Shown here one piece after another: positions 4,436 to 48,511 of a stretch of 48,513 bases of DNA. The stretch spans positions 1-48,513 of the forward strand of contig CAYHIR010000005.1 in the NCBI GenBank assembly GCA_964356815.1. Reading direction: 5' to 3'. Within the stretch, counting starts at the first letter, position 1. Each line of letters opens with the position of its first letter. Under the pieces are notes generated by a model. The model was given only the letters and a program-made list of their open reading frames with translations. It made no database searches and was not told where the DNA came from. The DNA comes from an uncultured Candidatus Saccharibacteria bacterium. Its GTDB lineage: Bacteria; Patescibacteriota; Minisyncoccia; Phycocordibacterales; DATGWK01. The position numbers were made by a program, and so were the translations under genes.

Positions 4436-5413
4436 TTAGATAAAACCCAATTCATTTATCAATTTATAAGTATTCCCATGCAATAAAAGACCTTTATAAG
4501 AAGCGATGCTTCCCGGTGACTGGTTTTTACTAATATTTTTTATCATTCTTCGCTCAGTCACTTTCCTGACAATTTTATGATCAGAGAAATGCACCCAGCC
4601 AAGAAAATCAACGCCCGAAGAAAAAGTCTTTACAAAAACTTTATCAGGATGAAGTGATAATTTTAAATTTTTTTCTAAAAATTCAGCGATTTTGGGAATC
4701 ATGTTAAGTAAGTGATTCCGATCTTGGTCGAGAATTACAAAATCGTCGGCGTAACGAATATAATATTTTGCTTTTATTTTATGCTTCATGAACTGATCAA
4801 ATTCATTCATGTAAATATTTACAAAAAGCTGTGATGTGAGATTGCCAAGAGGTAGACCAACACCTGGGCGTGTGGAATAAAAACTTCCAATAATTTCTGA
4901 CAAAAGTTTTAATACATTTTTATCCGAAATATACAGGCCAAGAATTTTTAGAAGAGTTATTTGATCTATTGATGCAAAAAATTTGCGAATATCGCATTTC
5001 AAAACCCAAACAGTTTTTGTGTGATTTTTGGATGCCTCAAAAGCAAAAGATTTGAATCGCGCCATCGCTTTATGCGTGCCTTTATTTAATCGACAAGAAT
5101 AAGAGTCAGGTGCGAATGTTTTATCGAAAAAAGTATAAAGTTTTCTGTAAATAGCGTGATGTAATAATCTATCTCTCACACTTGCCTTGTGAATCTCGTG
5201 AAATTTTGGATCGAAAATGGTAAACGGTTTATAAAAAGAGTGAGTGTATGTTTTTGCAACCAAGTCTCTATGAAGCAACATCATATTGCCCATAAGATTT
5301 CGCCCAAATTCTTGCACATCTTTTCGGTTGCGTTTACCATTTACAAATTCACCCCACGCTTCGAGAAGATTCTCGATGGAGATGATATCCTTATATTTCA
5401 GTTCGAAATGCAT
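4436..5413 (-). CDS. DGR reverse transcriptase
   Basis: GLPLGNLTSQLF (GxxxSQ motif), YIRYADDF catalytic motif, RDRLLHHA, KCDIRKFFASID; 325 aa with no maturase or endonuclease domain; next to TR. Confidence 0.95.
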   Translation of the reverse strand: MHFELKYKDIISIENLLEAWGEFVNGKRNRKDVQEFGRNLMGNMMLLHRDLVAKTYTHSFYKPFTIFDPKFHEIHKASVRDRLLHHAIYRKLYTFFDKTFAPDSYSCRLNKGTHKAMARFKSFAFEASKNHTKTVWVLKCDIRKFFASIDQITLLKILGLYISDKNVLKLLSEIIGSFYSTRPGVGLPLGNLTSQLFVNIYMNEFDQFMKHKIKAKYYIRYADDFVILDQDRNHLLNMIPKIAEFLEKNLKLSLHPDKVFVKTFSSGVDFLGWVHFSDHKIVRKVTERRMIKNISKNQSPGSIASYKGLLLHGNTYKLINELGFI

Positions 5414-40694: not shown

Positions 40695-41855
40695 CTAAAC
40701 CTTCGAAAATATCTTAATCTCCATATCCTTAGCGATATTCTCCCAGTTGTATTCGGAAATGGCCAACTCGCGGCCCTTGGTGATGACTTTGGAGCGCAAA
40801 TCGGCGTCCTCCAGAAGGGTCATAACGCTTGACGCCAGACTAACATGATTGTCGACTTCACAAAATAGGCCGGTTTCGCCGTGGGTCAGAAAGTCGGGGA
40901 TGCCACCCACATTGGTAGCAATAACGGGCAAACCAGCCGCCATGGCCTCTATAAACGAGTTTCCTAGGCCCTCAGAGCGCGAAGGACGGACGAATACATC
41001 AGCGACCTTCAAATACTTGGGCATGTCTTCATGAGAAATAAACCCCAGAAAAACCACCCGTTTTTCAACCTCCAAATTAAAAGCTAGATTCTTTAATTCA
41101 CCCTCAAGTTCACCCTCGCCGAGCACCAAAAGACTGACATTTTCCGGCAAAAGAGGCAAAGCGCGGATCACAGTGTCGACACCATTCTTCACAACTAGCC
41201 TAGAAGTTGTGACGAGCCAACGATCACCCAAAATTTTGCCGACCGTTTGTTTTAAGTTTTCAATTTCATCGACAGAATATTCGCGTGCAAATAGCCCGGT
41301 ATCGACACCGTTTTGAATGACATGGATCGGCGCGGTGGCACCAAAATCGCGCGCCATGCCGGCGAGAAAGTTGGAAATTGTTTGAATAACATTCGCCCTT
41401 TTAAAAATCATCAGAAAAAGCGGGTGAGCAATCCACGCGCGTCTTTTTAAATGTTCAATCGGATCACCCTCTTGAAGCGTGAGAATAAATTTCACTTGCG
41501 GTTTTAGAAAGGTGAAGAAAAGTGTCGCGAAACCAGCGTACTCAGCCATAATCGACCACGCGGCCGAAAAATGTAGCCGATGATGAAGACGCAAAGCTTT
41601 GAGCGTGCCGAGTATCGGAAAAAAATATTTGGCAATTTTCCAACCCGTCGCTTCGCCGATCGCGCCTAGTGCACGACCCACTCGATAGACATGCACATCA
41701 TCGATCTTTTCGTAAGCTTTTTCTTTACCGTTTAAATTGACGGTCACTAAATGAAACTCGACGCCAGTTATTCGCCGCGCAATTTCACGAACAGCAATTT
41801 CTGCACCGCCCACAAATGGATAGTATGCGACTGAAAAAATTATTATTCTCTTCAT
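40695..41855 (-). CDS. Glycosyltransferase family 4
   Basis: YYPFVGGAE, SRLVVKNG, PSRSEGLGNSFIEAMAAGLPV. Confidence 0.92.
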   Translation of the reverse strand: MKRIIIFSVAYYPFVGGAEIAVREIARRITGVEFHLVTVNLNGKEKAYEKIDDVHVYRVGRALGAIGEATGWKIAKYFFPILGTLKALRLHHRLHFSAAWSIMAEYAGFATLFFTFLKPQVKFILTLQEGDPIEHLKRRAWIAHPLFLMIFKRANVIQTISNFLAGMARDFGATAPIHVIQNGVDTGLFAREYSVDEIENLKQTVGKILGDRWLVTTSRLVVKNGVDTVIRALPLLPENVSLLVLGEGELEGELKNLAFNLEVEKRVVFLGFISHEDMPKYLKVADVFVRPSRSEGLGNSFIEAMAAGLPVIATNVGGIPDFLTHGETGLFCEVDNHVSLASSVMTLLEDADLRSKVITKGRELAISEYNWENIAKDMEIKIFSKV

Positions 41856-43795
41856 TATTTCTCTGTCGCGCGTTCTGTCGAGCCGAGGACCTTTCGCAAC
41901 AATTCTTCCGGCACTTCTTTTTGAGCTTCTTTTTTCGGCGGAGTTTGCGGCGCAGATTGCGGAGTTGGGGCCGATGGTTTTTGCGGACTCTGGGCCGGTC
42001 GATTTTCTACCTTCTTCTCGTGTTGAGATTTTTCCACAATGCCTTTGAGCGCCTCTTTAAGGTCGGAAAGATTTTTGCCACCCGGACCTTTATCTTTTCT
42101 TAAAGCATCTAGTGATATCGGCGGCTTAGTAGGAGTGACGGGGCCAGCAGGGCTGATTGAGTTGATCGGACGAACTGACGGCCTATGAGTGGCCTGATTT
42201 GTGTGGGTGACGGTAGCAGCTGGAGCAACTGGGGCAGTGTGGGGATGTGGAGCTGGACGATGATGTGTGGGCGCTGGATGAGGGGCTGGGGCTGGAGCGT
42301 GGGCGACAGCCGGTTTGACTGGAACAACTGGAGTCGCCGCCGGTACTGGAGCCGAAGTCACCGGAGCAGCTGGTCGCGGCGCAGAATGTGGAGCTGAGTG
42401 CGCGGGCGTTGGCGCCGCGGGTGACGCCGAAGAACTCGCCGCGGGTTTCGGTGGCAACTTTTTTTCCTCGCTCGAAGCAGGGCGTGGAGGTGGAGCAGGA
42501 CGAGCAACGGGCGCATGCCATTTGCGAATCGTTTCGTCTACCTCGGCGCGCGGATTGGCAAATTGTTCGCGCGATTTTTCGATGATGTCGTTGCGGAAAG
42601 AAATGTCGGGCTTTTTAATTGGCGGTAAAGTGGCGGCAGAAAAAGGTGGCGAAGTGACGCCGTCGATCATGAGCTTCAAATATGTTTGGACGAAACCGAG
42701 GTTGACCAAATCTTCAGCGGTGAATGTGGGTGCAAATTCTTTTTCGAGTACCTCAGCATCGTAAGCGCCAACGCGGAACGTAATCATCGTGCCCACGTTG
42801 CCGAAAACTGCGGCGCGCACTTCTTCCGACATTTGTTCTATATATTGATGCGCAACAGTAAGACTCAACTTATATTTTCGTGCCTCGGAAAGAATGTCAG
42901 CGAAAGATTCATTGGCAAAGTTTTGAAATTCGTCGACGAAAAGATAGAGCGGCGGCAGAGTTTTGAGTTTAGACTCAGTGACATCTGCACGCGAAAGTGC
43001 AGCGAGGAAAATTTTTGTGATGATCATACTGCCGAGCAAATTGGCATTGGCCTCACCTACTCTTCCCTTCGAAAGATTGATGATCATAATTTTTTTCTCA
43101 TCCATGATCTTGCGAATATCAAAGCTCGACTTTGGCTGGCCAATAATATTTCGCACCAAAGGATTGGAAACGAACTGGCCGATTTTGTTTTGAATGGCCG
43201 CGCCGGCTTCCTGCATGTATTTTTCGCCGTACTTGGCAAACTCGTCTACCCAAAAAGATTTTACAGATGGATCGGAAATATTATCCACCACGAGTTTGCG
43301 ATAATCTTTGTCTGAAAGCATTCTGTTCACACCAATGAGCGTCGAGTCTGGATACTCAAGAAGCGCGAGCAAAATGTTGTTCAAAATATATTCCATTCTG
43401 GCCGACCATGCGTCAACCCAGATTTTTTTAAACGCACTCATGAGTCCGTTGGCTACCAAATGGCGTTTGTTTGGCCCGACATCTTCCATGACGTTGAAAG
43501 AAATTGGAAACTCAGTGTCGAACGGCGCGAAATACACAACATCTTTTATTCTGTGTTGCGGCACATATTCGAGCAAAAGATCGGCTGTTTTACCGTGAGG
43601 ATCTATAAACGCAATGCCTTCGCCGTTTTGAATATCCTGCACCGCCATATTTTCAAGAAGAGTCGACTTACCCATGCCCGTTTTGCCGATCACGTACATA
43701 TGACGCGAACGATCCTTATTTTTTATACCAAACGGCATTCGCTTATTTCGCGAGTCGGTTTCGCCAAAATATGTGATTTTCTCGTCGTTGTTCAT
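41855..43795 (-). CDS. VirD4/TraD-like (type IV coupling protein/HerA-FtsK superfamily) ATPase with Pro/Ala/His-rich tail
   Basis: Walker A GKTGMGKS, IDPHG, Walker B LFVDEFQNF, EARKYKL..AHQY; low-complexity C-terminal ~200 aa. Confidence 0.85.
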   Translation of the reverse strand: MNNDEKITYFGETDSRNKRMPFGIKNKDRSRHMYVIGKTGMGKSTLLENMAVQDIQNGEGIAFIDPHGKTADLLLEYVPQHRIKDVVYFAPFDTEFPISFNVMEDVGPNKRHLVANGLMSAFKKIWVDAWSARMEYILNNILLALLEYPDSTLIGVNRMLSDKDYRKLVVDNISDPSVKSFWVDEFAKYGEKYMQEAGAAIQNKIGQFVSNPLVRNIIGQPKSSFDIRKIMDEKKIMIINLSKGRVGEANANLLGSMIITKIFLAALSRADVTESKLKTLPPLYLFVDEFQNFANESFADILSEARKYKLSLTVAHQYIEQMSEEVRAAVFGNVGTMITFRVGAYDAEVLEKEFAPTFTAEDLVNLGFVQTYLKLMIDGVTSPPFSAATLPPIKKPDISFRNDIIEKSREQFANPRAEVDETIRKWHAPVARPAPPPRPASSEEKKLPPKPAASSSASPAAPTPAHSAPHSAPRPAAPVTSAPVPAATPVVPVKPAVAHAPAPAPHPAPTHHRPAPHPHTAPVAPAATVTHTNQATHRPSVRPINSISPAGPVTPTKPPISLDALRKDKGPGGKNLSDLKEALKGIVEKSQHEKKVENRPAQSPQKPSAPTPQSAPQTPPKKEAQKEVPEELLRKVLGSTERATEK

Positions 43796-43803
43796 GGAGA
43801 TTG

Positions 43804-43955
43804 TTTAAAAAAATTATAACACATAGCGTTCTCATATGTACTCTGAAGTAACCGGCGTAGATTTCTGCTGAAATCTCGCCTCACTCTCAGCCCGTCGGCT
43901 TCCGAGAGTTACTTCAGAGTACATATGAGAACTTTTGAGTTTATAATTTTTTAAA
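43804..43955. repeat. Y-shaped inverted-repeat element, copy 1
   Basis: Perfect 25-bp arms 43828-43852 / 43908-43932 around a 55-nt two-hairpin core; additional AT-rich outer arms. Confidence 0.85.
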
Positions 43956-43989
43956 AAGAAAAAACCCGTCACATCTGAGATGCAACGGG
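43953..43989 (-). terminator. Intrinsic terminator of the PEP-CTERM-like gene
   Basis: CCCGU..CAUC-UCA-GAUG..ACGGG followed by a long U tract. Confidence 0.6.
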
Positions 43990-44035
43990 CTTGAGATTTG
44001 GCTTTTGAATCGGAGCCTACCGACCGGCGCGGCGT

Positions 44036-44707
44036 TTAGCGGCGACGGCGACAAAACATGCACACGCTGACAAACACGAGGCCGGCGGTACCCGGAGTGG
44101 GTACGAACGGTGCGCCGAGGCGATCGCCTTCAGCGCCAGGGCCGAAGGAACCGTAGAAGTCGAGACTGAAGTAGAAGAAAGTAACATCAGGCTCACCCTC
44201 AGTGCTCAAGACCTGCTCGTCGTAGTGCAAAAGCACTGAAGACAAATTGAATGGCAACACGCTGATGAAGGCGTAGCCGGTGTTGAAGGACACGTTGTTG
44301 TGATCCAGACCAGCATACAGCTGGTTCTGCTGGTACAACGATACACCACCAAGATTTAGATCCAGAGACGAATTGTGCTCGTGAGTGTTGAGATCGCTGT
44401 TCTTGAAACCACTGATGCTCAGCGACCCATAACCCTCGCTTGAATCTTCCGACCAGGTGGAGAAAGACGTATTCACCTGATGGATCTCGTGAACACGACT
44501 CGTCACAGAGAGATCGACGTAGATCTTCCTGTGGTCGTTCTCGGAGCTAGAAATCTGCCCATAGAAACCGCCGAAGTTGAACGAGCTGGAGGAGTACGAT
44601 CCGTATTGCGGCGCCCCCATCGCCTTCCCAGGCACCCCGCCGAAGCAGAGCGCGTAGAGGAACGAGATGACGATCGAGGCAACCAGACCGAACTTGGAAA
44701 TCTTCAT
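44036..44707 (-). CDS. Secreted protein with PEP-CTERM-like sorting signal (VPTPG-TM-RRRR)
   Basis: ATG 44707 with AAGGAG RBS; N-terminal signal peptide MKISKFGLVASIVISFLYALCFGG; C-terminus FVPTPGTAGLVFVSVCMFCRRRR. Confidence 0.75.
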   Translation of the reverse strand: MKISKFGLVASIVISFLYALCFGGVPGKAMGAPQYGSYSSSSFNFGGFYGQISSSENDHRKIYVDLSVTSRVHEIHQVNTSFSTWSEDSSEGYGSLSISGFKNSDLNTHEHNSSLDLNLGGVSLYQQNQLYAGLDHNNVSFNTGYAFISVLPFNLSSVLLHYDEQVLSTEGEPDVTFFYFSLDFYGSFGPGAEGDRLGAPFVPTPGTAGLVFVSVCMFCRRRR

Positions 44708-44816
44708 TGAGAAACTCCTTCTGTGTTGTGGGTCAACTAGACCCTTGTGAGGTACAAATGTGAGGCTATACAGCCCCAGAAACACGAAATCGGCTACACA
44801 GCCGACTTACCCCTAT

Positions 44817-44858: not shown

Positions 44859-45857
44859 TGTGCACACACATATGGCGGTTTCTCCTAGAATGGAGGAATG
44901 AGCATATGTATGGCTAAAACAATCAAAGAAGAGCGGGTAAGATGGGTCCTACCCATCATTAGGAAAGAGGTGAAATTAGTGGATGTAGCAAAGGTCTGCC
45001 CGCATGGTAAAAGAAGTCTGGAGCGTTGGGTGGCGACATACAGAATCGGTGGTGAGAGTGCACTTGAACCTAAGTCGACCGAACCTAAAACTCAACCAAA
45101 GGAAACAACGATCAGGATCAAGGAGAGAATTGTAGAGATCAGAAGACAAACAAAGAAGTGTGCCCTAAAGATACACTGGCAACTCCAAAAGGAAGGTATC
45201 GAAATTGACGAGAGAACGATTGGAAAGATCCTGAAGAAGGAAGGACTGGTCAGAAAGTATCGAGTGAGAAAGATCACATACAAGTACATTAGAGCCATAC
45301 GAAAACCTGGGGATCTAATTGAGATCGATGTGAAGTATGTGCCAGGACACATTGCAGGTAGGCAGTATTTTCAATACACAGCCATTGATACAGCTTCTCG
45401 CTGGAGACATTTACTGGTGTACGACGAACAAACCACACATCACTCGATTGCATTCCTTGAAGAAGTGATGGGTTTGTTTCCTCATCGAATCCAAGCAATC
45501 AAAACTGACAACGGTAGCATTTTCACCAACTACTACCTCGGCACCAACAAACGAAGTGATGTTACAGTCAAAACACTCCACGCACTCGATGTCTTTTGTC
45601 AGCAAAACAATATCATCCATTACCTGATTGATCCGGGTAAACCTGCACAGAATGGAACCGTAGAGAGAAGTCATCGTGAAGATCAGGAGAAATTCTACGA
45701 TCAGAACAAGTTCAGAAACATCTGGCACTTGCGAGATGGTATCAAGAGATGGAATACTTACTACAACAATCTTGAGCACTGCGGATTGGGTGGCAAGACA
45801 CCGAATGAATTTCTTGCCAATTATTCAAAAACTAATCCGCCATATGTGTGTACCTAA
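44859..45857 (+). mobile_element. IS481-like insertion sequence
   Basis: Single transposase ORF bracketed by perfect 15-bp inverted repeats ACACACATATGGCGG (44864-44878) / CCGCCATATGTGTGT (45837-45851); left end begins TGT; no clear target-site duplication. Confidence 0.8.
44898..45857 (+). CDS. DDE transposase (IS481-like; HTH + rve integrase core)
   Basis: IEIDVKY (D), KTDNGSIF (D), QNGTVERSH (E); the ORF ends in and just past the right inverted repeat. ATG 44910 is an alternative start. Confidence 0.9.
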   Translation: MSICMAKTIKEERVRWVLPIIRKEVKLVDVAKVCPHGKRSLERWVATYRIGGESALEPKSTEPKTQPKETTIRIKERIVEIRRQTKKCALKIHWQLQKEGIEIDERTIGKILKKEGLVRKYRVRKITYKYIRAIRKPGDLIEIDVKYVPGHIAGRQYFQYTAIDTASRWRHLLVYDEQTTHHSIAFLEEVMGLFPHRIQAIKTDNGSIFTNYYLGTNKRSDVTVKTLHALDVFCQQNNIIHYLIDPGKPAQNGTVERSHREDQEKFYDQNKFRNIWHLRDGIKRWNTYYNNLEHCGLGGKTPNEFLANYSKTNPPYVCT

Positions 45858-47425: not shown

Positions 47426-47499
47426 CGCGGCCGACCGGATTTGAACCGGCAACCTCTCACGTGACAGGCGAGGGCTCTAACCAGTTGAGCTACGGCCGC
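47426..47499 (-). tRNA. tRNA-Asp(GUC)
   Basis: Cloverleaf with GCGGCCG acceptor, CT-GTC-AC anticodon loop, GGTTCAAATCC T arm and G73; CCA not encoded. Confidence 0.95.
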
Positions 47500-48164
47500 A
47501 ATTTATTTCTTTTTTTCAAAAACCTCTTGTATACATTCTTTTTCCTAGGAAGAAAAAGTGTCGAGTCTAAATCTGAGTACATCAACTCATATAACTTTAT
47601 AGAGCTGTGTATGCTGTAATATAGACGATAATAGGTGCTCTGGCAATACAACCCGCCTTTAATACCATACTTTAATAGTGCCTCTCTCAGATCTTCGAGA
47701 AAAGCTTTTGAGCAGGAGGTAAAAACAGTCTGAATCGCTAAGTGCGAGGTTTTTCTATCTTTATGAACTTTTCCTACCCAGACATTGCCATCGCCATCAA
47801 AATATCCCCTTACGAAATGTAAAAATAAGTGACTGGGGATGTTCGGGAGTAGCAATTTGTGAGTTTTCTTGATTGCAAAGCCAAGGCTCAAAACATCATT
47901 GCACAACTCCTTACTTCCAATCTGCAACCTAAAACTATTTTTTCGCCTCACATCACCAGCCCGGCGACTTATTTTGTGATTGGAACCAAGGACTTTTCTA
48001 ATTTTTCTAATCAGATGGCCATCGTTTATTTCTAAACAGAAAAAATAGGCCCCTCTTTTGTTTTTTGTAATGTATCCGTCGGCGGCGTAAAAACCTAAAA
48101 TATACGCCATCTCCGACGACCATTTTTTAAAAAAATCTTTGTTTAACTTTTTAGTGACAGGCAT
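47490..48164 (-). CDS. Free-standing double-motif LAGLIDADG endonuclease-like protein
   Basis: YILGFYAADGYI and FVRGYFDGDGNV motifs; ATG 48164; stop codon lies inside tRNA-Asp. Confidence 0.85.
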   Translation of the reverse strand: MPVTKKLNKDFFKKWSSEMAYILGFYAADGYITKNKRGAYFFCLEINDGHLIRKIRKVLGSNHKISRRAGDVRRKNSFRLQIGSKELCNDVLSLGFAIKKTHKLLLPNIPSHLFLHFVRGYFDGDGNVWVGKVHKDRKTSHLAIQTVFTSCSKAFLEDLREALLKYGIKGGLYCQSTYYRLYYSIHSSIKLYELMYSDLDSTLFLPRKKNVYKRFLKKRNKLRP

Positions 48165-48216
48165 GTTGCCTAACCATTTTACCACGAACTAATCGTGACC
48201 AAAAAAACAATTAATG

Positions 48217-48290
48217 TGTCGAGGGTGGGAATCGAACCCACTACCTGGCGCTTATGAAACGCCCGCTCTAACCAGATGAGCTACCTCGAC
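48217..48290 (-). tRNA. tRNA with CAU anticodon (elongator Met or Ile2)
   Basis: GTCGAGG/CCTCGAC acceptor, TT-CAT-AA loop, GGTTCGATTCC T arm; paired 1-72, so not an initiator. Confidence 0.9.
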
Positions 48291-48320: not shown

Positions 48321-48433
48321 AAATTACAAATGTGTTATGGAATTGACTCTCGCAAGCCGCGCAGGCGGCTGAGAGTGAGGCGAGATTTCAGCAGAAATCT
48401 ACGCCGTTCAATTCAATAACATATTTGTAATTT
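48321..48433. repeat. Y-shaped inverted-repeat element, copy 2 (inverted relative to copy 1)
   Basis: 48367-48406 is the exact reverse complement of 43853-43892 (40 nt); flanked by 26-bp arms 48321-48346 / 48408-48433 with 2 mismatches. Confidence 0.85.
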
Positions 48434-48439
48434 CTCTTG

Positions 48440-48511
48440 TTGCGGGGGCCGGAATTGCACCGACAATCTCAAGGTTATGAGCCTTGCGAGTTACTGTTAC
48501 TCTACCCCGCT
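48440..48511 (-). tRNA. Initiator-like tRNA-Met(CAU) with non-canonical D and T loops
   Basis: A1xA72 mismatch, GCGGGG/CCCCGC acceptor, CAAGG-CTCATAA-CCTTG anticodon arm, T loop TGCAATT, D loop without GG. Confidence 0.8.

What the first reader, a model, noticed from the sequence alone, without database searches (positions are those of the whole stretch)
43804..43955. Y-shaped element, copy 1: conserved two-hairpin core inside site-specific long inverted arms
Seen: perfect 25-bp arms (GTTCTCATATGTACTCTGAAGTAAC and its reverse complement) enclose a core with two hairpins, GGCG-AGATTTC/GAAATCT-CGCC and CTCTC-AGCC/GGCT-GAGAG. Forty nt of the core recur exactly at 48367-48406, but the arms there are unrelated in sequence. 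A MITE would conserve its ends, whereas here the middle is conserved and the arms differ. It lies between a terminator and the ATPase promoter (TGnTATAAT in the outer arm). Inference: a small mobile or REP/REPIN-like unit that creates inverted rather than direct target duplications, or a processing signal needing any long stem.
Basis: partly seen in the sequence, partly recalled or inferred. Interest (0 to 1): 0.65.

Follow-up and report, generated by a model that had tools for sequence, protein, structure and literature searches.

The report
Capped-hairpin repeat family in Paceibacteria
The Y-shaped element is one of about 39 copies of an uncatalogued small DNA repeat in a tiny groundwater bacterium: a conserved two-hairpin cap on a long stem, part of which is an inverted copy of neighbouring DNA, so it shows how a genome can build long perfect hairpins behind its genes.

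Summary
Window 43804-43956 is a 49-nt inverted repeat (inner 25 nt perfect) around a 55-nt two-hairpin core. The core recurs exactly (40/40) at 48367-48406 with unrelated arms.

It is one of about 39 copies in this 765-kb Paceibacteria (CPR) genome. The family occurs in all nine sampled genomes of the same family and patchily across the order and class. No Rfam family matches.

All 38 own-genome copies checked are intergenic. Most lie directly behind a stop codon or tRNA, about 3-4:1 in sense orientation.

Both cap and stem pair almost only by Watson-Crick pairs: there is heavy covariation and essentially no G·U.

No RAYT/IS200 transposase is present, and no target duplication was seen in the one case examined.

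For copy 1, 21 orthologous ATPase loci carry the extended -10 promoter, or a close variant of it, but no inverted partner. The left outer arm is therefore ancestral and the right outer arm is its inverted copy. In relatives, hairpin stems likewise mirror the invariant last codons of rpsG.

Best reading: a REP-like repeat without a transposase. Its distal stem is made and kept perfect by inverted duplication of flanking DNA (template switching). It probably acts as a 3'-end RNA hairpin. How the cap spreads is unknown.

The parts
43804..43827 (.). Copy 1, left outer arm. It is the ancestral promoter region of the ATPase gene, with TGTTATAAT on the minus strand at 43821-43813, 17 nt before the ATG at 43795.
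   Evidence: The orthologous ATPase genes in 21 loci mostly carry TGnTATAAT or a close variant within about 25 nt of the ATG. None has an inverted copy of it.
43828..43852 (.). Copy 1, left inner arm: 25 nt with perfect pairing. The last 8-10 nt (..TGAAGTAAC) are conserved in the subfamily.
43853..43907 (+). Copy 1 cap, a three-way junction. Linker C 43853. Hairpin 1 43854-43880 (4 bp, bulged T, 7 bp, loop TGCT). Linker TCA 43881-43883. Hairpin 2 43884-43908 (5 bp, 4 bp, loop CGTC, 3' bulge TCC).
   Evidence: Covariation on 56 distinct sequences from other genomes.
43908..43932 (.). Copy 1, right inner arm: the exact reverse complement of 43828-43852.
43933..43956 (.). Copy 1, right outer arm: a derived inverted copy of the ATPase promoter region (15 of 16 match for TTTAAAAAAATTATAA). 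It carries TATAAT on the + strand at 43941-43946.
43962..43992 (-). Ordinary intrinsic-terminator-like hairpin plus T-run of the upstream 249-aa gene (44036-44785). It is not part of the element.
41855..43795 (-). VirD4/TraG/HerA-like ATPase gene whose promoter lies in the left outer arm.
48321..48433 (-). Copy 2. 5' arm 48433-48408, cap 48407-48347, 3' arm 48346-48321 (26-nt arms, 2 mismatches). It starts 5 nt after the 3' end of tRNA-Met (48439-48511) and is in sense with the tRNAs. The 3' arm holds the -35-like TTGTAA of a promoter-like site facing tRNA-Met 48216-48290.
   Evidence: Orthologous element at the same site in genus g3 (L014).

Best explanation
The element is one copy of a multi-copy, REP-like intergenic repeat of Paceibacteria for which no transposase was found.

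The conserved unit.

The distal stem. This further 12-40 bp is not carried by the unit in this genome. It is an inverted copy of DNA that was already next to the insertion point. The two arms are then kept identical by the same kind of event. The most likely process is short-range template switching during DNA replication or repair. The new strand folds back on the hairpin, copies its own flank, and returns. This creates, lengthens and homogenises inverted repeats in single steps.

Function. Copies sit directly behind stop codons and tRNA 3' ends, about 3-4:1 in the sense orientation. They are therefore most probably transcribed into a very stable Y-tipped hairpin at the 3' end of the upstream transcript. 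That hairpin would act as a terminator, a 3'-end protector or a processing site.

What is shown: the family, its structure with covariation, its positions, the Watson-Crick-only pairing, and that one arm is ancestral at copy 1.

What is inferred: template switching as the mechanism, and the RNA-level role.

What is unknown: how the cap reaches new sites.
For: Family size and spread. There are 39 copies in G000 and 3-10 in each of the nine other genomes sampled from the same family. Other lineages show bursts of 16 and 22 copies. In the class, 24 of 300 further genomes have a match.

Structure. 93% of cells are paired. 279 cells show changes on both sides, against 78 in shuffles. Along nearest-neighbour links there are 76 Watson-Crick to Watson-Crick double changes against 49 one-sided changes.

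Pairing type. In the ungapped arms there are 583 Watson-Crick pairs, 6 G·T and 7 A·C. G·U makes up about 1% of cap pairs.

Long hairpins go with the cap. The genome has 42 perfect hairpins with stems of 14 bp or more, against 1 in a shuffle. 30 of them (plus four variant caps) carry the cap.

Position. All 38 own-genome copies checked are intergenic, with 8 convergent and 2 divergent sites. Stop-adjacent copies are sense 14:2 in G000. In relatives the count is 26:9.

One arm is ancestral. The ATPase promoter, or a close variant, is present in 21 orthologous loci, none with an inverted partner. The window has a 15/16 inverted copy. The last 5 codons and stop of BipA are mirrored in the 3' arm of copy C1:19763. 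In metagenome relatives the invariant rpsG end (HFAW-stop) is mirrored in the 3' arm of hairpins, while about 13 loci are empty, with spacers of 4-32 nt.

Recency. Identical 65-nt caps sit on unrelated arms. The arms match nothing else in the genome.

Known mechanism. Template switching is described as creating, lengthening and homogenising inverted-repeat arms (PMC8794818, PMC8604942, PMC13100816).
Against: No insertion polymorphism or intermediate (a cap without a distal arm) was caught. Logan contigs break inside the cap.

In G011, G022 and G028 the arms are similar among copies. One 109-nt unit with its arms is found in two unrelated contexts. So whole hairpins can also be copied, and not every arm is local.

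The clearest coding-sequence examples (rpsG) involve plain hairpins, not Y caps.

Template switching alone explains neither the sense bias nor the spread of identical caps to new loci.

Only about half of the sense copies have a T-run after the stem, by my reading of the flanks. No RNA data exist.
Confidence: 0.55

Rival explanations
1. It is an ordinary non-autonomous transposon (MITE/REP type). The whole hairpin, arms included, is cut and pasted by a transposase supplied in trans. Arm diversity then reflects old divergence plus compensatory evolution.
For: The same 109-nt unit, including its 20-nt arms, sits in unrelated contexts in G002 and G009. Arms are similar among copies in G011, G022 and G028. 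C12 and C16 share arms. The distribution is patchy with bursts. An rve integrase gene lies 0.9 kb from copy 1.
Against: Caps identical over 65 nt sit on wholly unrelated arms in G000. No target duplication is seen at the L014/L015 borders. There is no Y1/RAYT transposase in the genomes richest in copies. The outer arm of copy 1 is the gene's own ancestral promoter.
Confidence: 0.15
2. The cap inserts into the loops of hairpins that were already there, such as long terminators. Both arms would then pre-date the cap.
For: Copies sit where terminators sit. Orthologous sites in other species hold other long hairpins. One subfamily has terminator-like arms, A-run/CCCC..GGGG/T-run. Long-stem plain terminators exist (C3:11041).
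Against: Copy 1 has a separate normal terminator beside it. Its arms contain a promoter that has no inverted partner in 21 orthologous loci. The BipA and rpsG coding ends are mirrored in 3' arms. 34 of 42 long perfect hairpins carry a cap (30 the Y cap, four a variant cap), so cap-free long hairpins that could serve as targets are rare.
Confidence: 0.1
3. It is a functional structured RNA or RNA signal under selection, for example a cap recognised by an RNase III-like or other protein that cuts or binds any long stem. The perfect stems would be a product of selection, not of a DNA copying process.
For: The loop (TGCT) and junction bases are conserved across genera. Covariation is strong. Copies show a sense bias behind genes and tRNAs. 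The same sites are occupied in distant lineages: tRNA-Met, rpsG-fusA and the region upstream of the ATPase. Stems of 22-33 bp match double-stranded-RNA enzyme substrates (my knowledge).
Against: G·U pairs are almost absent and show no strand bias. The distribution is patchy, with bursts of identical copies. About a quarter of copies are antisense. 14-nt mirrored coding ends cannot arise by point mutation. No Rfam match was found.
Confidence: 0.15

Closest known systems
REP / BIME / REPIN elements (with or without RAYT transposases; PMC3733652, PMC3116915)
   Same: They are small palindromic extragenic repeats present in tens of copies. They lie mostly downstream of genes, between co-directional or convergent ORFs, and are probably transcribed as 3' hairpins. 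The CGTC-type REPs also lack a dedicated transposase.
   Different: Here the conserved part is a branched tip and the outer stem is locus-specific. This is the reverse of a REPIN, which has conserved arms and a variable loop. No GTAG tag is conserved. No RAYT is present in the genomes that carry the element.
Bacterial MITEs that fold into long hairpins (Correia/CREE, ERIC, RPE; named from my knowledge and from PMC10969869, which I saw by title and abstract only)
   Same: Similar size (about 110-150 nt), a long foldback, intergenic location, lineage-specific bursts, and possible effects on termination, processing and promoters.
   Different: MITEs carry their own conserved terminal inverted repeats and make direct target duplications. 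In G000 the distal arms are unique. No target duplication was seen in the one case examined (L014/L015), and no parent IS was identified.
Template-switch (quasipalindrome) mutation (PMC8794818, PMC8604942, PMC13100816)
   Same: It creates reverse-complement copies of adjacent sequence, lengthens and homogenises inverted-repeat arms, and gives multi-base 'compensatory' changes in one step. This matches the mirrored promoter and coding ends and the lack of G·U intermediates.
   Different: It is a mutation process, not an element. It does not explain a conserved cap spreading to 39 sites, or the orientation bias.
Intrinsic (Rho-independent) terminators, including bidirectional ones
   Same: The position is right behind stop codons or tRNAs. 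One subfamily has an A-run, a GC stem and a T-run.
   Different: The stem is 22-50 bp with a 55-nt branched tip. Many copies lack a T-run. Copy 1 sits beside a normal terminator and is antisense to the flanking genes.

Membership tests
REP/REPIN-RAYT system | A RAYT (IS200-like Y1 transposase, PF01797) gene in the genome | tested here: not met
   no match in G000, G001-G004 or G006-G009, nor in G028 (22 copies). The control genomes do match.
REP/REPIN-RAYT system | A conserved 20-40 bp palindrome with an unpaired GTAG or CGTC tag at one end; REPIN = two conserved inverted REPs around a variable spacer | tested here: not met
   the conserved part is the central three-way junction. GTAG occurs only in one subfamily. 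CGTC is a loop, not an end tag. The outer arms vary.
REP/REPIN-RAYT system | Extragenic location, mostly downstream of ORFs between co-directional or convergent genes | tested here: met
   all 38 own-genome copies checked are intergenic, with 8 convergent against 2 divergent sites. The cap's 5' side lies next to a stop codon 26 times against 9 in relatives.
MITE | Terminal inverted repeats conserved among copies | tested here: inconclusive
   In G000 only the proximal 8-10 nt are shared and the distal arms are unique. In G011, G022 and G028 the arms are similar among copies.
MITE | Direct target-site duplication flanking the element | tested here: not met
   the same 109-nt unit in two contexts has flanks TTTTTTC/TGGATAA and TTATTGT/AGAGAAA, with no direct repeat. 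The recurrent TC/TC mismatch is constant, not site-specific.
MITE | A parent insertion sequence with the same ends | not tested
   Only PF01797 and PF00078 were surveyed. The ends of the nearby rve integrase gene were not compared.
IS200/IS605-derived palindrome-associated elements | Sub-terminal hairpins recognised by a Y1 TnpA | tested here: not met
   no Y1 transposase in G000 or in its family, apart from one sub-cut-off match in G005.
Intrinsic terminator | GC-rich stem followed at once by a U-run | tested here: inconclusive
   The terminator scans flag only the neighbouring plain hairpin, not copy 1 or copy 2. By eye, about half of the sense copies have a T-rich 3' arm or tail.
Any Rfam 15 RNA family (ribozymes, cis-regulators, sRNAs) | Covariance-model match at or near the gathering score | tested here: not met
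   copy 1 gives only generic long-hairpin (miRNA precursor) hits far below threshold. Caps in 10 other loci give nothing.
Inverted repeat made by template switching | One arm is an exact reverse-complement copy of pre-existing adjacent sequence | tested here: met
   ATPase promoter; BipA end; rpsG end in relatives, with empty sites.
Inverted repeat made by template switching | Direct observation of the switch event (ancestor-descendant pair, four switch points) | not testable with these tools
   No close strains were found: the best rpsG relative is 81% identical, and Logan contigs break in the cap.

The most novel reading that the evidence does not exclude
The cap is the active core of a new kind of protein-independent mobile module, a 'capped palindrome'. 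A self-folding three-way junction would be copied to new gene ends by template jumps of the host replication or repair machinery. It would then prime fold-back synthesis on its own flank. Each insertion would thus build a long perfect hairpin from local DNA and install a new 3'-end signal, and sometimes a mirrored promoter.
Probability: 0.2. Interest if true: 0.8.

Novelty: new variant of a known kind. Interest (0 to 1): 0.6.

Why it matters
If the reading holds, streamlined CPR genomes carry a class of repeat that inverts the usual logic of small mobile DNA. The tip is conserved and the stem is manufactured on site.

It gives natural, datable examples of template switching that build 20-50 bp perfect hairpins, copy promoters and copy gene ends. 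It also explains how compensatory stem evolution can occur without G·U intermediates.

These elements fill the gene-end positions behind rpsG, fusA, rplL and tRNAs. They probably shape transcript ends in organisms whose termination and RNA processing are unstudied.

Practically, the repeats break short-read assemblies. Five of the eight near-exact core matches lie within about 1.1 kb of a contig end.

Tried and rejected
- **Rfam.** The gathering and E-value scans gave no family.
- **Hammerhead, twister, attC and tRNA-like readings.** Considered by eye and dropped, because the defining motifs are absent.
- **RAYT/IS200.** Absent.
- **Reverse transcriptase as mobiliser.** G000 has 4 RT genes, but ten element-bearing genomes have none. 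I computed an odds ratio of about 3.8 by hand from the tables, which I judge too weak to count.
- **Empty sites from public runs.** Logan contigs end inside the cap, so they give no information.
- **Exact-protein look-up of the neighbouring 249-aa gene.** Not on record.
- **RNA-seq runs.** None were found.
- **Strand test by G·U against A·C.** No bias: 6 against 7 in the arms.
- **Arms as guides or imports from elsewhere in the genome.** There are no other matches of 16 nt or more, except the C12/C16 pair and one isolated 16-nt match (E = 0.003) for the C8:29890 arm.
- **Replication-direction polarity.** Rejected: both orientations occur among same-strand genes on contig C3.
- **The rule 'the cap's 5' side abuts the nearest gene end, start or stop'.** It held 22:8 in G000. 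The start-codon part did not replicate in relatives (4 against 8), so only the stop-codon sense bias is kept.
- **Cap flipping inside fixed arms.** The asymmetric TC/TC internal loop always keeps the same orientation relative to the cap, so there is no evidence of flipping.

Full report
**1. What is in the window**

The sequence at 43804-43956 is as described.
- Two 49-nt arms are 84% complementary, and their inner 25 nt are perfect.
- The 55-nt core folds into two hairpins on top of the long stem, on either strand. The free energy is -71 and -74 kcal/mol against about -27 to -29 for shuffles.
- The core recurs exactly (40 of 40) at 48367-48406 on the minus strand, where none is expected by chance.
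- That second copy has its own 26-nt arms, unrelated to the first.

Copy 1 lies between two minus-strand genes.
- Upstream is a 249-aa ORF with an ordinary terminator-like hairpin at 43992-43962.
- Downstream is a VirD4/TraG/HerA-like ATPase gene (41855-43795).
- The cap is antisense to both genes.

Copy 2 lies between two tRNA-Met genes. It is in sense with them and starts 5 nt after the first tRNA.

**2. It is a family**

The host genome is 765 kb in 25 contigs at about 45% GC. Its relatives are labelled Paceibacteria/Parcubacteria, and it comes from groundwater.

- nhmmer and a covariance model built from 25 copies find about 39 copies in at least four sequence subfamilies.
- Each of the nine other genomes sampled from the same family has 3-10 copies.
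- Elsewhere in the order the element is patchy, with bursts of 16, 10 and 22 copies. 23 of the 41 genomes searched have none.
- In a sample of the class, 24 of 300 further genomes have a match.
- No Rfam 15 family matches copy 1 or the caps in ten other loci.
- Four literature searches found no description.

**3. Anatomy**

The conserved unit is a three-way junction with these parts.
- A closing stem, GTNAC/GTNAC or ATGAC/GTCAT. It is often preceded by TTCGAA and followed by TTCTCAA, with a constant TC/TC internal loop.
- Hairpin 1: 4 bp, a bulged T, 7 bp, and the loop TGCT, which is conserved in at least 90% of 60 copies from other genomes.
- A short linker.
- Hairpin 2: a GC-rich stem, usually the loop CGTC, and a 3-nt bulge on the 3' side.

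Evidence for the structure on 56 distinct sequences from other genomes:
- 93% of cells are paired.
- 279 cells carry changes on both sides, against 78 in shuffles.
- Sliding the partners destroys the signal.
- Along nearest-neighbour links there are 76 Watson-Crick to Watson-Crick double changes, against 49 one-sided changes.
- G·U is only about 1% of cap pairs.
- In the ungapped arms there are 583 Watson-Crick pairs, 6 G·T and 7 A·C.

The structure is thus kept in a DNA-like, Watson-Crick-only manner, with no sign of which strand matters.

**4. Where copies sit**

- All 38 own-genome copies checked are intergenic. There are 8 convergent sites, 2 divergent sites and about 21 co-directional sites.
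- The arms usually run up to the neighbouring gene end.
- The neighbours are core genes: between rpsG and fusA, after fusA, after rplL, between rplI and rpmA, and next to smpB, frr, rpsS and tRNAs.
- Copies within about 35 nt of a stop codon are in sense orientation 14 to 2 in this genome. This is my count.
- In 53 copies from other genomes, the cap's 5' side lies within 40 nt of a stop 26 times. The 3' side does so 9 times.
- Both orientations occur among same-strand genes on one contig. The bias therefore follows transcription units, not replication.

**5. Origin of the arms**

Several observations bear on this.

- **Recency.** Caps identical over 65 nt sit on unrelated arms (C5:43848, C3:140, C6:1093). 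The arms match nothing else in the genome apart from the C12/C16 pair. They therefore arise at, or soon after, arrival of the cap.
- **Long hairpins go with the cap.** The genome holds 42 perfect hairpins with stems of 14 bp or more, against 1 in a shuffle. 30 of them, plus four with variant caps, carry this cap.
- **Copy 1.** The orthologous ATPase genes in 21 loci mostly carry an extended -10 box or a close variant (TTGTATAAT, TGTTATAAT, GGTATAAT) within about 25 nt of the ATG. In the window this box (TGTTATAAT, minus strand 43821-43813) lies in the left outer arm. Only the window has an inverted copy of that region (15 of 16). No ortholog exceeds 12 of 16. The left outer arm is therefore ancestral and the right outer arm is derived from it.
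- **BipA.** In copy C1:19763 the last five codons and the stop codon of BipA lie in the 5' arm and are mirrored in the 3' arm.
- **rpsG.** Among 80 metagenome loci with rpsG, the protein end ANKAFAHFAW-stop is invariant in the 16 loci whose ends I printed.
  - About 13 loci have an rpsG-fusA spacer of only 4-32 nt. These are empty sites.
  - Five loci have hairpins whose 5' arm is ..ATTTTGCTTGGTAA (HFAW-stop) and whose 3' arm is its reverse complement. A synonymous TTT/TTC difference is mirrored in the partner arm.
- **Another orthologous site in genus g3.** It shows related arms that stay paired after about 30% divergence, a decayed cap, a one-hairpin cap, an unrelated hairpin, or nothing.

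Stems in this lineage therefore grow by inverted duplication of the flank, and their two sides change together.

This is what short-range template switching is known to do. It creates reverse-complement copies, homogenises and expands arms, and yields multi-base compensatory changes in one event (PMC8794818, PMC8604942, PMC13100816).

**6. What does not fit a purely local origin**

- In G011, G022 and G028 the arms are similar among copies.
- A 109-nt unit with its 20-nt arms is 93.6% identical in G002 and G009. In G002 it sits behind tRNA-Met, the ortholog of window copy 2. In G009 it sits in an unrelated context, with no direct repeats at its borders. Whole hairpins can therefore also be copied.
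- No RAYT/IS200 gene occurs in the genomes richest in copies.
- Reverse transcriptase genes are present in G000 (four of them) but absent from ten genomes that carry the element.
- How the cap moves remains open.

**7. Function**

The evidence is indirect.
- Copies sit behind genes and tRNAs with a sense bias.
- The same junctions are occupied repeatedly in distant lineages.
- At rpsG-fusA, different lineages carry the Y cap, a second cap family of about 90 nt, a third small cap, or plain long hairpins.

Together these point to a transcribed 3'-end hairpin: a terminator, a protector against 3' exonucleases, or a processing site. No RNA runs hold this organism, so this is inference.

Copy 1 is one of the antisense minority. 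It sits beside a normal terminator. Its main visible effect is to have mirrored the ATPase promoter.

**8. Comparison and verdict**

The closest known things are REP/BIME/REPIN elements and hairpin-forming MITEs. They share the location bias and the probable RNA role (PMC3733652).

Membership fails on three defining features.
- There is no RAYT.
- There are no conserved outer repeats in this genome.
- No target duplication was seen in the one case examined.

The architecture, a conserved tip with a locally made stem, is the reverse of a REPIN. I file it as a new variant of the small palindromic repeat kind.

Earlier notes of this scan on other copies reached similar descriptions. They did not supply the evidence used here.

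Noticed in passing
L063, L064, L069, L071, L073, L079, L080, L083, L087, L089, L092, L100, L104, L126 (just after the rpsG stop): A second, unrelated cap family of about 90 nt (core ..GCGCAGTAC-N-GTACAGCTTGGTCGC..) also sits on locus-specific arms at the rpsG-fusA junction of many metagenomic Paceibacteria. A third small cap occurs in L065, L067 and L113.
   Followed up: partly
L090, L099, L101, L112, L133 (rpsG 3' end): Plain terminator-like hairpins have stems of 18-29 bp that include the last four codons and the stop codon of rpsG, mirrored exactly downstream. The five loci share downstream sequence, so they may stem from one event.
   Followed up: partly
window 47490-48185 (-): A free-standing LAGLIDADG endonuclease ORF lies between tRNA-Met and tRNA-Asp. 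The orthologous tRNA cluster in G002 (L014) has only about 215 nt there, so the ORF looks like an insertion.
   Followed up: partly
window 44898-45857 (+): An rve-type integrase with an HTH domain lies 0.9 kb from copy 1. Its ends and copy number were not examined.
   Followed up: no
window 4436-5413 (-); also G000 C9:340-951, C19:8387-8998, C3:59869-60474: There are four reverse-transcriptase genes of about 325-357 aa in a 765-kb genome. They match the group II intron RT model below its cut-off and are possibly of the diversity-generating type.
   Followed up: partly
G000 C3:58432-58450: A truncated cap (its first 14-19 nt plus a 5' arm) abuts the fusA start. It resembles the full copy at C6:1093, whose arm also ends 1 nt from a start codon. 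The cap appears to have been lost by deletion between short TTCTG repeats.
   Followed up: partly
L011 1625-1746: Another repeat of about 120 nt, unrelated to the cap, has copies on several contigs of G004 and G006. It sits next to the element.
   Followed up: no
L021-L046, 7-25 nt upstream of the ATPase ATG: The orthologous ATPase genes mostly have an extended -10 box or a close variant very close to the start codon. This implies very short or absent leaders without a Shine-Dalgarno sequence.
   Followed up: partly
G000 C3:160, C6:1099, C16:137, C14:828, window 48367: Five of the eight near-exact core matches lie within about 1.1 kb of a contig end. Logan contigs also break inside the cap. 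The repeat appears to fragment short-read assemblies.
   Followed up: partly
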